64,000 nucleotides of DNA from assembly GCA_964229255.1 (NCBI GenBank), contig CAXRCX010000011.1, positions 141,546-205,545 of the forward strand, written 5' to 3'. Each line of letters opens with the position of its first letter. Position 1 is the stretch's first letter. The notes beneath the pieces were generated by a model. The model saw nothing but the letters and a program-made list of their open reading frames with translations. It was not told the origin of the DNA and searched no databases. Source of the stretch: Porticoccaceae bacterium. GTDB taxonomy: Bacteria; Pseudomonadota; Gammaproteobacteria; Pseudomonadales; Porticoccaceae. The translations under genes were made by a program, and so were the position numbers. Below are positions 2,330-42,718 of this stretch, piece by piece.

Positions 2330-3280
<951 letters not shown>

Positions 3281-3967
3281 ATGCAATTAGCAGTATTAGA
3301 TCCAATCAATCCAGTCTTTCCGGACCCTAATACTGCATTAGATGATCCAGATGGGCTACTGGCTGTAGGTGGCAATTTACAGCCAGATACCCTCCTCTCT
3401 GCATACTATAATGGGATTTTCCCTTGGTATAATAAAGACGATCCTATCCTTTGGTGGTCCCCCAGTACACGCTGTGTGATTAACCCGCTCGACCTTCATA
3501 TTTCTAAAAGCTTACAAAAATTATTGCGCCAACAAAGATTCACTATTTCTTTTGATCAAGCATTTGAGCAAGTAATAAACGCCTGTGCTCAACGAGACTC
3601 CAAGACTGATACTTGGATAAATAGCGATATGATTTCAGCTTACATCGCTTTAAAAAAATTGGGTGTAGCACACTCAGTTGAAGTTTGGCAGGGCTCTAGG
3701 CTGGTTGGTGGCGCCTACGGTGTGGCGATTGGTGCGGTATTTTGTGGCGAATCTATGTTTAGCAAAGAATCCAACGCCTCAAAAGTTGCACTTGTGCACC
3801 TATCGCAATATTTATCAGGCTTAGGGTTCCAGTTAATTGATTGTCAGCTTGCTTCTAGTCATCTTTTAACTATGGGCGCGAAATCATTGAAAAGACCTAA
3901 ATTTTTGCAGATTTTGCAAAAATTACGAAACATTAATACTGATTTTTCTCCAAGTAAATCACCTTAA
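3281..3967 (+). CDS. aat: Leucyl/phenylalanyl-tRNA-protein transferase
   Basis: DGLLAVGG, GIFPW, LWWSP, AHSVEVW, FCGESMFS, ASKVAL motifs. Confidence 0.97.
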   Translation: MQLAVLDPINPVFPDPNTALDDPDGLLAVGGNLQPDTLLSAYYNGIFPWYNKDDPILWWSPSTRCVINPLDLHISKSLQKLLRQQRFTISFDQAFEQVINACAQRDSKTDTWINSDMISAYIALKKLGVAHSVEVWQGSRLVGGAYGVAIGAVFCGESMFSKESNASKVALVHLSQYLSGLGFQLIDCQLASSHLLTMGAKSLKRPKFLQILQKLRNINTDFSPSKSP

Positions 3968-40688: not shown

Positions 40689-41492
40689 CTACCTGGGCAA
40701 CTTTTGCTTAGCAAAGATATCGTAACGGGTGGATTTGCCCTGCAGGGAATAACTGGGCTCAATCATCCCCAAATAGTCTGAATTGGCTGGCCTTTTCACC
40801 ACCAAGCGATAAACTGCTTTATCTAAGGCTTTTTGCAGTGTAATTGCAGCATCTTCATCTTCACCAACAATTCTGTGCAGTGCCTGCATTTCTTTTTTCA
40901 CCTGCGCGGATTTTTTCCGCGGTGGAAACATTGGATCTAAATAAATAACATCGGGAAAACTGGATGTACCCAAGGAATCCAAGTAATTACAGCTGTTTAT
41001 ATGAGTCAATTCCATGCGATCAATTATCGCGGCTAAACTATCATCATCCTCGCCCGCTAAATGGGCTCGCTCTAAGCCATCCTTCAACAGGAGGTAAACA
41101 ATAGGATTGCGCTCTAGGAGCTTAACCCTACAGCCTAAACTGGCCAAGACAAAAGCATCTGAGCCCAATCCAGCAGTTAGATCGAGTACATTTGGCAAAA
41201 ACTTACCTGAAACGCCAACTGCCTTAGCAATCATCTGCCCATTTCCACCACCATAATTCCTGCGATGGCGATGGCTACCAGAGACAAAATCACAGCGAAT
41301 AGCACCATGGTTTTGGGTATTAGAAAGAAAACTTAGACCATCTTTAGATAGATTGATTGAAAAATCAGCCATCTCAGACAATTCTCGTCTATTGCTCTCT
41401 ATTTCTACAAGTGGAAGATCTAATAGCGAACAAATATGCTGGGCTGATTGCCTATAGCTGTTATCAGAAATAGTAACAATAATTTTAGTCAT
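40689..41492 (-). CDS. rsmJ: 16S rRNA G1516 methyltransferase RsmJ (YhiQ) family
   Basis: VLDLTAGLGSDAFVLASLG, LERNP, VIYLDPMFP, VKKEMQ, VVKRP, GKSTRYD. Confidence 0.92.
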   Translation of the reverse strand: MTKIIVTISDNSYRQSAQHICSLLDLPLVEIESNRRELSEMADFSINLSKDGLSFLSNTQNHGAIRCDFVSGSHRHRRNYGGGNGQMIAKAVGVSGKFLPNVLDLTAGLGSDAFVLASLGCRVKLLERNPIVYLLLKDGLERAHLAGEDDDSLAAIIDRMELTHINSCNYLDSLGTSSFPDVIYLDPMFPPRKKSAQVKKEMQALHRIVGEDEDAAITLQKALDKAVYRLVVKRPANSDYLGMIEPSYSLQGKSTRYDIFAKQKLPR

Positions 41493-41665: not shown

Positions 41666-41700
41666 TTGTCCACAGATCCTGTGGATAACTTTGTGGAATA
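41666..41700. promoter_or_regulatory. DnaA-box triad (DARS-core-like)
   Basis: TTGTCCACA (41666-74, 1 mismatch to TTWTNCACA), GATCC, TGTGGATAA (41680-88, perfect, reverse), CTT, TGTGGAATA (41692-700, reverse, 1 mismatch). Confidence 0.75.
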
Positions 41701-41786
41701 CTACTTTAGCAACTGCAATTAACCTAGAAAAACCAAAGGATTTATACAGATTGATTATTTTTTGTACAGTAAAAAAATACTTGCAA

Positions 41787-41829
41787 AAACAATGACTTAA
41801 AATTATTGAGAGAAATAATCAATAACTTA
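41787..41829 (+). promoter_or_regulatory. Tandem IHF-consensus sites
   Basis: AATCAATAACTTA at 41817-29 matches WATCAANNNNTTR perfectly; AAACAATGACTTA at 41787-99 has 1 mismatch; 30-bp spacing. Confidence 0.6.
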
Positions 41830-41870
41830 GCGAGGTTTATTAAAGTAATATTTTAGAAAAAAGGTGTATC

Positions 41871-41879
41871 TGTGGAAAA
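41871..41879 (-). promoter_or_regulatory. Distal DnaA box
   Basis: TGTGGAAAA, reverse complement TTTTCCACA, matches TTWTNCACA perfectly. Confidence 0.6.
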
Positions 41880-41947
41880 AGATCAATAGAATTAGAAAAT
41901 AAGTAGTAATACCTATGCCGAGCTAGAGTCAAAATTTAGCTAAAGAA

Positions 41948-42718
41948 CTATAACTTAGTCAAATATAACCAGTCAAATCCTTCTTCTTGATCGGCGTAAA
42001 TAATTTGCGCTGAACCCCGATAAACGTATTCTATGGCTTTTTTTACCATGCTTTTATTATTGTTACTCTGGCTGATATGCCCTATTACTAATTGTTTAAT
42101 ACATGCTTGATCAATAACACTGATTAAAGCAGCAGTTTGACTATTGTTTAGATGACCCCATTGACTAGCGACACGATCTTTCAAAAATTTAGGGTATGTT
42201 CCAGCGTTTAGCAACTCTTGATCGTGGTTAGCTTCCACTAATAGACCGTCACATCCGCTGTATTGTTTTTCAATATGGGGGGTAATACAGCCTACATCGG
42301 TTAGTATACCCAAGCGGCAATGATCGTCGACAAAAATATATTGAACGGGCTCTAGGGCATCGTGAGGCACTGGAATGGGTGTAACCTCAATATCACCGAC
42401 TGTAAAGTTTTTATGGCTATCAATTAGCTTTAAACCTGAATAGTCGTTAAAACACAATCCTGTAGCCCTAAGACAACCTGCGGTAATGTATATGTCGATG
42501 CTGTAGCGAGAGGCAAAGGGTAGCACGCCCTTCCAGTGATCACTGTGTTCGTGAGTGACTAATACACCATCTATTGTCTCTGGCGCTATATCTAAACGCT
42601 GTAGACGTCGTACACAGTCTTTAACTGAAAAACCACAGTCGACCATTAGACAGGTATTATTTGAATGAACAATAGTGGCATTTCCCTTGCTGCCACTACC
42701 CAAAGAGGCAAAACGCAC
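41948..42718 (-). CDS. MBL-fold metallo-hydrolase (YycJ/WalJ-like)
   Basis: LGSGSKGNAT, THEHSDH, VPHDA, TDVG, EANHD, GHLNN, GHISQSNN; follows bamC as usual. Confidence 0.9.
   Translation of the reverse strand: MRFASLGSGSKGNATIVHSNNTCLMVDCGFSVKDCVRRLQRLDIAPETIDGVLVTHEHSDHWKGVLPFASRYSIDIYITAGCLRATGLCFNDYSGLKLIDSHKNFTVGDIEVTPIPVPHDALEPVQYIFVDDHCRLGILTDVGCITPHIEKQYSGCDGLLVEANHDQELLNAGTYPKFLKDRVASQWGHLNNSQTAALISVIDQACIKQLVIGHISQSNNNKSMVKKAIEYVYRGSAQIIYADQEEGFDWLYLTKL

What the first reader, a model, noticed from the sequence alone, without database searches (positions are those of the whole stretch)
41666..41879. DARS-like DnaA/IHF element in the 455-bp rsmJ-MBL intergenic region
Seen: three tightly packed DnaA boxes (forward, 5 bp, reverse, 3 bp, reverse: TTGTCCACA GATCC TGTGGATAA CTT TGTGGAATA). 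Further along are a 1-mismatch box (TTATACAGA, 41742-50), two tandem IHF-consensus sites (41787-99 and 41817-29) and a perfect distal box (41871-79). This is by far the densest DnaA-box cluster I saw in the window. Known: E. coli DARS1/DARS2 regenerate ATP-DnaA through a three-box core, and DARS2 also needs IHF and Fis sites. As I recall the DARS1 core, its orientation and spacing match this triad. Inference: a DARS2-like replication-control element in a marine Cellvibrionales-type bacterium, where I know of no characterised example. Alternatives are a datA-like sink or DnaA control of the rsmJ promoter.
Basis: partly seen in the sequence, partly recalled or inferred. Interest (0 to 1): 0.82.

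Follow-up and report, generated by a model that had tools for sequence, protein, structure and literature searches.

The report
DARS2-like DnaA/IHF platform in SAR92
A 217-bp non-coding stretch in this marine SAR92 bacterium holds binding sites for the replication initiator DnaA and for IHF, laid out like the E. coli DARS2 element that recharges DnaA; the layout is strictly conserved in relatives, but the recharging activity is untested.

Summary
Window 41666-41700 reads TTGTCCACA-GATCC-TGTGGATAA-CTT-TGTGGAATA. This is the 9-5-9-3-9, forward/reverse/reverse geometry of the E. coli DARS1 and DARS2 cores, which I checked against the E. coli sequences. In the 1.5-Mb genome this triad is unique: 3 mismatches in total, against 8 for the next best.

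It heads a 217-bp module (41666-41882):
- the triad;
- a Fis-consensus block, 53 bp after box III;
- two IHF-consensus sites (+87, +117);
- a distal DnaA box (+171).

All 74 SAR92/Porticoccaceae genomes examined carry the triad, and nearly all carry each downstream site. Offsets vary by only 1-2 bp, while the spacers between the sites vary freely. E. coli DARS2 has the same order: core, IHF sites, then DnaA box V at +177.

The module is not oriC, which lies in the mnmE-dnaA spacer on another contig. It lies near the terminus. It is not an rsmJ operator, not datA-like and not an RNA.

The triad occurs in 336 of 401 sampled Gammaproteobacteria. The triad plus distal box occurs in 217 of 401. Reversed-pattern controls gave 1 and 0 hits.

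Main caveat: Gln208 of E. coli DnaA, needed there for DARS-dependent ADP release, is alanine here and in most of the class. ADP release is inferred, not shown.

The parts
41666..41674 (+). [quoted passage not shown] The CACA half is highly conserved; the first five bases vary among relatives.
41675..41679 (.). 5-bp spacer (GATCC) between boxes I and II. The length is invariant. The last base is C in nearly all relatives.
41680..41688 (-). DnaA box II, a perfect consensus (TGTGGATAA = TTATCCACA). It is identical in 73 of 74 SAR92-family loci.
41689..41700 (-). 3-bp spacer CTT followed by DnaA box III (TGTGGAATA; TGTGGATTA in most relatives), in the same orientation as box II.
41748..41769 (.). 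Conserved block AGATTGATYAttTTTTrnnCAG. It contains a perfect match to the Fis consensus GNNYANNNNNTRNNC at 41753-41767, which is 53 bp after box III.
   Evidence: perfect in 66 of 74 loci at +52/53; perfect at +51 to +53 in 13 of 30 class-level modules
41787..41799 (+). IHF-consensus site 1 (AAACAATGACTTA). It has one mismatch here; the consensus in relatives is AATCAATGACTTA. It lies 87 bp after box III.
   Evidence: other families have a perfect IHF consensus at +84 to +113
41817..41829 (+). IHF-consensus site 2 (AATCAATAACTTA, perfect). It lies exactly 30 bp after site 1 and 117 bp after box III.
   Evidence: (perfect in 73 of 74 loci)
41868..41882 (-). Conserved TATCTGTGGAAAAA block holding the distal DnaA box (41871-41879, TTTTCCACA on the minus strand), 171 bp after box III. 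It is the positional counterpart of E. coli DARS2 DnaA box V but has the opposite orientation.
   Evidence: (72 of 74 loci at +169 to +171)
40689..41492 (-). rsmJ-like 16S rRNA methyltransferase gene. Its start lies 174 bp from box I here and 155-750 bp away in relatives.
41948..42718 (-). MBL-fold hydrolase gene. Its stop codon lies 66 bp beyond the end of the module.

Best explanation
Window 41666-41882 is a self-contained, cis-acting DNA platform for DnaA, IHF and probably Fis, built like E. coli DARS2. It most likely helps control the nucleotide state of DnaA.

Proposed mechanism:
1. ADP-DnaA, produced after initiation by the Hda-dependent pathway (Hda is encoded), binds the perfect box II.
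2. It recruits further protomers head-to-head to box I (5-bp gap) and head-to-tail to box III (3-bp gap).
3. IHF bends the DNA at the conserved sites 87 and 117 bp away. This folds the distal DnaA box, and possibly Fis, back onto the core. A roughly 180-degree bend centred on IHF site 1 would bring the distal box within about 10-15 bp of box III.
4. The strained complex releases ADP, and free DnaA rebinds ATP.
5. The distal box may nucleate ATP-DnaA to shut the element off, as E. coli box V does.

Shown here: the sequence architecture, its uniqueness in the genome, its strict conservation, its independence from the flanking genes, its non-origin location, and the presence of the dnaA, hda, ihfA, ihfB and fis genes.

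Inferred by analogy only: protein binding, DNA bending and ADP release.
For: - Geometry identical to the E. coli DARS1 and DARS2 cores (defined in PMC6868365 and PMC5742627).
- Unique in the genome: 3 mismatches against 8 for the next best.
- The IHF sites and distal box follow in the same order as in E. coli DARS2. In E. coli the IHF sites are at +59/+75 and box V at +177. Here they are at +87/+117 and +171 (IBS position confirmed through the PciI site, PMC11724364).
- All 74 SAR92/Porticoccaceae loci carry the triad, and at least 66 carry each downstream site, with offsets fixed to within 1-2 bp. The neighbouring MBL protein is only 45-78% identical across these loci. Information content is near 2 bits in the site blocks and low in the spacers.
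- In 13 loci from other families of the order, the triad has unrelated flanking genes. It is still followed by a perfect IHF consensus at +84 to +113 (8 of 13) and a reverse DnaA box at +162 to +180 (11 of 13).
- Class-wide, the triad is in 336 of 401 genomes and the triad plus distal box in 217 of 401. Controls gave 1 and 0 hits.
- The genome encodes Fis (119.8 bits, cut-off 99), IhfA- and IhfB-like proteins, Hda and DnaA. DnaA domain IV is nearly identical to that of E. coli.
Against: - There is no biochemical or genetic test in this lineage.
[quoted passage not shown] It is Gln in only 1 of 28 diverse gammaproteobacterial DnaAs.
- The distal box has the opposite orientation to E. coli box V.
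- The best Fis-consensus site lies between the core and the IHF sites. In E. coli the essential FBS2-3 lies next to box V.
- The two IHF sites are 30 bp apart, not 3 bp.
- There is no synteny with uvrB or mutH.
- The module lies near the terminus in SAR92. In E. coli, DARS2 function is inhibited at a terC-proximal position (PMC5742627).
Confidence: 0.55

Rival explanations
1. The platform binds DnaA and IHF but works in the opposite direction or passively. It could be a titration sink. Or it could be a datA-like site that promotes ATP-DnaA hydrolysis, damping initiation instead of recharging DnaA.
For: - It combines a high-affinity DnaA box cluster with IHF sites, as E. coli datA does (PMC5742627).
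- Gln208, needed for ADP release in E. coli, is absent.
- The terminus-proximal position keeps its copy number low for most of the replication cycle.
Against: - E. coli datA does not have the 9-5-9-3-9 triad. Its best fit has 8 mismatches, and its opposed box pair has a 3-bp gap.
- The window element matches the DARS geometry exactly.
- A simple sink would not need spacings fixed to within 1-2 bp over 217 bp.
Confidence: 0.2
2. The platform is a DnaA/IHF site with a role other than control of the DnaA nucleotide state. An example is a terminus-region chromosome-organising or cell-cycle signalling site. On this view the E. coli DARS activity is a later specialisation that arrived with Gln208.
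For: - The triad is almost class-wide, but Gln208 is rare.
- The SAR92 copies sit 43-50% of the chromosome away from dnaA.
Against: - In other families the same module sits near the origin or mid-replichore. In closed genomes G033, G056, G081 and G063 the copies lie 4-27% of the chromosome from dnaA. Terminus linkage is therefore not general.
- No alternative function is known for this geometry.
Confidence: 0.12
3. The triad is a DnaA operator that controls transcription of rsmJ or of another neighbouring gene.
For: The triad lies 174-208 bp upstream of the rsmJ start in this genome. DnaA is a known transcription factor.
Against: - The distance to rsmJ varies from 155 to 750 bp among relatives.
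- In about half of the relatives an extra ORF ends 30-60 bp before box I. The module then lies between two gene 3' ends.
- In other families the same module has unrelated neighbours.
- There is no excess of promoter-like sites: 4 found against 3.5 expected.
Confidence: 0.03
4. The locus is oriC or a second origin, or it encodes a structured non-coding RNA.
For: The spacer is AT-rich and holds DnaA boxes and IHF sites. A GC-skew change occurs on the same contig. The single-sequence RNA fold has z = -2.8 and -3.2 on the two strands.
Against: - The skew change is a cumulative maximum with convergent genes, which is terminus polarity.
- dnaA, three DnaA boxes and the skew minimum are on contig C9, in the mnmE-dnaA spacer.
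- In closed SAR92 genomes the module is about 1.0-1.17 Mb from dnaA.
- Rfam finds nothing.
- RNAalifold on 30 sequences gives no consensus structure and zero covariation. The fold signal comes from inverted DnaA boxes and appears equally on both strands.
Confidence: 0.02

Closest known systems
E. coli DARS2 (DnaA-reactivating sequence 2, rppH-mutH spacer; Fujimitsu 2009, Kasho 2014 PMC4245941, PMC8682772, PMC11724364)
   Same: - Core of three DnaA boxes with 5-bp and 3-bp gaps, box I inverted.
- IHF-consensus sites on the box III side, roughly midway to a further DnaA box at about +171 to +177.
- A Fis-consensus sequence within the element.
- Total size about 220-256 bp.
- Non-coding, and away from oriC.
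   Different: - Two IHF sites 30 bp apart (3 bp in E. coli), at +87/+117 instead of +59/+75.
- The distal box is inverted relative to box V.
- The clearest Fis-like site lies between the core and the IHF sites, not beside the distal box.
- Box II is a perfect consensus, as in DARS1.
- The neighbours are rsmJ and an MBL-fold gene, not mutH.
- It is terminus-proximal, not mid-replichore.
- The host DnaA has Ala at the Gln208 position.
- The host has no Dam.
E. coli DARS1 (bioD-uvrB spacer)
   Same: Identical core geometry, with a perfect box II. Total mismatch count of 3 in both.
   Different: DARS1 is about 101 bp and needs no IHF or Fis. It has no conserved IHF pair or distal box at these offsets. 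It is syntenic with uvrB.
DARS2 homologues reported in E. coli-proximal species (Shigella, Pectobacterium, Yersinia, Photorhabdus, Rahnella, Vibrio cholerae, Shewanella; PMC8682772, PMC6090056)
   Same: Conserved core plus regulatory DnaA box and Fis region outside E. coli.
   Different: Those copies keep the E. coli genomic position. I found no report for Pseudomonadales, Cellvibrionales or SAR92 in the searchable library.
E. coli datA
   Same: A non-coding DnaA box cluster with an IHF site that acts on the nucleotide state of DnaA.
   Different: The box arrangement differs: there is no 9-5-9-3-9 triad. Its activity is the opposite one, ATP hydrolysis.

Membership tests
DARS core (DARS1/DARS2) | Three DnaA boxes, with box I opposite to boxes II and III, a 5-bp gap between I and II and a 3-bp gap between II and III | tested here: met
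   Window 41666-41700 against E. coli L003 1608-1642 and L004 3136-3170. Spacing rule taken from PMC6868365 and PMC5742627.
DARS core (DARS1/DARS2) | Chromosomal non-coding site distinct from oriC | tested here: met
   oriC/dnaA is on contig C9 at the GC-skew minimum. The module is near the skew maximum of contig C11. It is about 1 Mb from dnaA in closed relatives.
DARS core (DARS1/DARS2) | Promotes ADP dissociation from ADP-DnaA and regenerates ATP-DnaA | not testable with these tools
   This needs a biochemical assay or genetics.
DARS core (DARS1/DARS2) | Head-to-head DnaA contact through Gln208 (E. coli numbering) | tested here: not met
   The host DnaA reads SERFVADMVKALQ, so the position is Ala. 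V211, L214, Q215, F239, K243, R285 and L290 are conserved. Only 1 of 28 class members has Gln.
DARS2 regulatory region | IHF binding site(s) between the core and a distal Fis/DnaA-box region | tested here: met
   The test is by consensus match and conservation only. The sites are at 41787-99 and 41817-29, and site 2 is perfect in 73 of 74 loci. ihfA- and ihfB-like genes are present. Binding itself was not tested.
DARS2 regulatory region | DnaA box V about 175 bp beyond box III | tested here: met
   The distal box is at +171, against +177 in E. coli. It is conserved in 72 of 74 loci. Its orientation is reversed relative to E. coli.
DARS2 regulatory region | Essential Fis sites (FBS2-3) adjoining box V | tested here: inconclusive
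   A conserved perfect Fis consensus exists, but at +53, between the core and the IHF sites. I found no clear Fis consensus next to the distal box. A fis gene is present.
DARS1/DARS2 orthologues as described in the literature | Genomic position next to uvrB (DARS1) or mutH (DARS2) | tested here: not met
   The flanking genes are rsmJ and an MBL-fold hydrolase gene, with bamC and dapA beyond.
datA | The datA box arrangement (boxes 7, 2 and 3 with a single IHF site) | tested here: not met
   The best fit of E. coli datA to the triad geometry has 8 mismatches. Its opposed box pair has a 3-bp gap.
oriC | Located at the GC-skew minimum next to dnaA (or gidA), with divergent gene orientation | tested here: not met

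The most novel reading that the evidence does not exclude
The DARS-geometry triad with its Fis-like, IHF and distal-box sites at fixed offsets is an ancient, relocatable nucleoprotein switch found in most Gammaproteobacteria. E. coli DARS2 is a derived copy of it. It works without Gln208, so DnaA is recharged (or otherwise remodelled) through a head-to-head contact different from the E. coli model. In SAR92 its terminus-proximal position would tie DnaA recharging to the end of a replication round.
Probability: 0.25. Interest if true: 0.75.

Novelty: new variant of a known kind. Interest (0 to 1): 0.6.

Why it matters
DnaA-reactivating sequences have been studied almost only in E. coli. The only other reports are of conserved copies in close relatives (Enterobacterales, Vibrio, Shewanella).

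- This locus shows the same core, with an IHF and distal-box layout, in the abundant marine SAR92 clade. It sits in a different genomic position there.
- The survey made for this report shows the core in 84% and the core plus distal box in 54% of 401 sampled Gammaproteobacteria.
- This gives a concrete, clonable 217-bp element for asking whether DARS-type initiator recycling is a general feature of the class.
- It also raises a direct question. The Gln208 contact that E. coli needs is replaced by Ala in most of these bacteria. Either the mechanism is more flexible than the E. coli model, or the ancestral function of the element is different.

Tried and rejected
- Simple DnaA-box density. Strict boxes in the window are at background, and pairs with at most 1 mismatch are common in the genome. 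I replaced this measure with a geometry-specific scan.
- oriC. Rejected on skew polarity, gene orientation, dnaA location and the position in closed genomes.
- dif site search, to pin down the terminus. No match was found.
- rsmJ operator. Rejected on the variable distance, the intervening ORF and the different neighbours in other families.
- datA-like site. The geometry does not match.
- RNA element. Rfam finds nothing. There is no consensus structure or covariation. The favourable single-sequence fold comes from inverted DnaA boxes.
- Dam/SeqA involvement of the GATC motifs. There is no Dam homologue, and GATC occurs at the expected frequency.
- TTATACAGA as a fourth DnaA box. It is not conserved as a box.
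- Fujimitsu 2009 could not be read. Its statements on conservation are cited second-hand from PMC6090056, PMC4245941 and PMC8682772.
- An initial misassignment was corrected. The E. coli DARS2 core is the triad at L004 3136-3170, not the second triad at 3452-3486. This follows from the positions of IBS1-2, the PciI site and box V.

Full report
**Observation.** The window sequence at 41666-41700 is TTGTCCACA GATCC TGTGGATAA CTT TGTGGAATA. It lies in the 455-bp spacer between an rsmJ-like gene (40689-41492, minus strand) and an MBL-fold hydrolase gene (41948-42718, minus strand). Against TTATCCACA the three boxes carry 1, 0 and 2 mismatches. The distal box at 41871-79 (TGTGGAAAA) and the IHF consensus at 41817-29 are exact. 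The IHF-like site at 41787-99 has one mismatch.

Plain box density is unremarkable. The window has 6 strict boxes against 7.4 expected, and many places in the genome have two near-consensus boxes within 60 bp. The arrangement is what stands out. I scanned the whole 1.5-Mb assembly for forward box / 5 bp / reverse box / 3 bp / reverse box. This site scores 3 mismatches in total and the next best scores 8.

**Comparison with E. coli.** I took the E. coli K-12 sequences themselves.
- The DARS1 core in the bioD-uvrB spacer is TTATCCACT ATTCC TGTGGATAA CCA TGTGTATTA.
- The DARS2 core in the rppH-mutH spacer is TTATTCACC TTTTC TGTGGATAG AGT TGTGAAGAA.
- Both have the 9-5-9-3-9 layout with box I inverted. 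The literature gives this as the defining common feature (PMC6868365, PMC5742627).

In E. coli DARS2 the two IHF sites lie 59 and 75 bp beyond box III. They are 3 bp apart and overlap the PciI site, as described in PMC4245941 and PMC11724364. The perfect DnaA box V lies 177 bp beyond box III. In the window the IHF-type sites lie at +87 and +117 and the distal box at +171. The order is the same and the total span is nearly the same. The differences are listed below.

**Conservation.** The organism belongs to the SAR92 clade (Porticoccaceae).
- In 17 same-genus genomes the triad is always between rsmJ and the MBL gene.
- In 74 Porticoccaceae/SAR92 loci, collected through the MBL protein (45-78% identical), every locus carries the triad.
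- A perfect Fis consensus (GNNYANNNNNTRNNC) lies at +52/53 in 66 of 74.
- IHF site 1 lies at +86 to +88 in 70 of 74.
- IHF site 2 lies at +116 to +118 in all 74. It is a perfect consensus in 73 and has one mismatch in L099.
- The distal box lies at +169 to +171 in 72 of 74.

An information-content profile over 73 distinct sequences shows near-invariant blocks at 41671-74, 41679-41700, 41748-69, 41789-99, 41817-29 and 41868-82. These blocks are separated by freely varying spacers of constant length. That pattern is what a set of protein-binding sites held in fixed register would give. MBL homologues in Rhodocyclaceae, Burkholderiales and Nitrospinae have no triad nearby.

**Independence from the neighbouring genes.**
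- The distance from the triad to rsmJ ranges from 155 to 750 bp.
- In the larger SAR92 genomes an extra 150-200-aa ORF ends 30-60 bp before box I. The module then lies between two gene 3' ends.
- In 13 loci from other families of the same order the triad sits between unrelated genes, such as rdgC and a 5'-3' exonuclease gene, an EAL-domain gene and purM, putA and trmA, or next to thyA.
- These 13 triads are still followed by a perfect IHF consensus at +84 to +113 (8 of 13) and by a reverse-oriented DnaA box at +162 to +180 (11 of 13).

This argues against a gene-specific operator and for a self-contained module.

**Breadth.**
- In 401 genomes sampled evenly across Gammaproteobacteria, 336 (259 of 309 genera) carry the triad with at most 3 mismatches. 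The reversed-pattern control hit once.
- The exact composite CACA-N5-TGTGGATAA-N170-195-TGTGNAWAA occurs in 217 of 401 genomes (171 genera), with zero control hits.
- Among 30 such class-level modules, 13 have a perfect Fis consensus at +51 to +53 and 8 have a perfect IHF consensus at +85 to +88.
- The published range of DARS2 homologues is E. coli-proximal species, Vibrio cholerae and Shewanella (PMC8682772, PMC6090056). I found no report for Pseudomonadales, Cellvibrionales or SAR92 in the searchable library.
- Earlier notes of this scan describe similar triads in SAR86 and Pseudomonas. They agree with this reading but are not independent evidence.

**Not the origin.**
- dnaA lies on contig C9, downstream of mnmE. 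Three DnaA boxes lie in the spacer, and the cumulative GC-skew minimum falls there.
- Contig C11, which holds the window, shows positive skew for 1-135 kb, about zero for 135-185 kb and negative skew beyond. This is a cumulative maximum. Genes converge at about 40.7 kb of the window. Both signs indicate terminus polarity.
- In the complete genome CP179212.1 and the single-contig chromosome assembly OX044363.1, the module lies 43.5% and 45.4% of the chromosome from dnaA. In two large-contig assemblies the figure is about 49-50%.
- The SAR92 module is therefore terminus-proximal. This is not general. In closed genomes of other families the modules lie 4-27% of the chromosome from dnaA.
- No dif-like site was found.

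**Other rivals.**
- E. coli datA lacks the triad geometry.
- Promoter-like and terminator-like sites are at background.
- Rfam gives nothing above threshold.
- The single-sequence RNA fold is more stable than shuffles on both strands (z = -2.8 and -3.2). The reason is that box I and the distal box are inverted repeats. RNAalifold on 30 sequences finds no consensus structure and no covariation.
- There is no Dam homologue and GATC is at its expected frequency. The GATC motifs in the module are therefore not Dam/SeqA sites.

**Host factors.** The genome encodes DnaA, Hda, Fis (above the curated cut-off), IhfA-like and IhfB-like proteins, and HU. Its DnaA is 61% identical to E. coli DnaA and has an almost identical DNA-binding domain. 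[quoted passage not shown] Here that position is alanine. The other modelled interface residues and Arg285 and Leu290 are conserved. Among 28 diverse gammaproteobacterial DnaAs the position is A in 20, S in 4, G in 2, V in 1 and Q in 1, although most of these genomes carry the triad.

**Interpretation.**
- I am about 90% confident that this is a conserved DnaA/IHF platform with DARS2-type architecture.
- I put about 55% on it working as a DnaA-reactivating sequence. On this reading, ADP-DnaA assembles on boxes I-III, IHF folds the distal box back onto the core, and ADP is released.
- The Gln208 difference, the inverted distal box, the different placement of the Fis-like site and the terminus-proximal position are real departures from the E. 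coli model. They leave room for a sink-like or datA-like role (about 20%) or for another DnaA/IHF function (about 12%).

**Classification.** I file it as a new variant of a known kind. It is worth a bench test because a single 217-bp fragment and standard E. coli assays would settle the question.

Noticed in passing
L004 3452-3486 (E. coli K-12 rppH-mutH spacer): The E. coli DARS2 region holds a second triad with the same 9-5-9-3-9 geometry (TTATCCCAG CTTTC TGTGGATAA CAT GGTGTAAGA). It lies about 280 bp beyond the functional core at 3136-3170. It probably corresponds to the dispensable boxes beyond box V.
   Followed up: partly
G000 C9:156782-158266 (DnaA) and class-level loci L150-L178: The residue at the E. 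coli DnaA Gln208 position is Ala in this genome. Across 28 diverse Gammaproteobacteria it is A in 20, S in 4, G in 2, V in 1 and Q in 1. The residue reported as essential for DARS function in E. coli is therefore rare in the class.
   Followed up: partly
G000 C11:~130000-185000 (window ~1-43000): The cumulative GC skew peaks here and gene orientation converges at about 40.7 kb of the window, so the window spans the replication terminus region. No dif-like XerCD site was found anywhere in the assembly with up to 8 mismatches to the E. coli dif.
   Followed up: partly
L018, L022-L024, L026, L028, L029, L033, L034 (oriented loci, ~870-1470): The larger SAR92 genomes carry an extra 150-200-aa ORF between rsmJ and the module. 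In L022 it has a lipoprotein-like N-terminus and leucine-rich-repeat-like sequence. The streamlined genomes, including this one, lack it.
   Followed up: no
class-level genomes G191, G285, G118, G134, G435, G438, G325, G418: Several Gammaproteobacteria have two or three DARS-geometry triads in tandem, 300-2200 bp apart on the same strand. This could be a multi-copy DARS locus or part of an origin.
   Followed up: no
whole genome G000: tblastn with E. coli Dam finds no homologue (E <= 1e-3). GATC occurs at 1.07 times its expected frequency.
   Followed up: yes
window 41744-41752 and class-level modules: Many modules across the class read TTGTTAAAT, TTATTAAAT or TGACAAAT about 44-50 bp after box III, just before the Fis-like site. 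The window reads TATACAGAT there. No known factor was assigned to this motif. It resembles the end of the XerD arm of dif, which may be coincidence.
   Followed up: no
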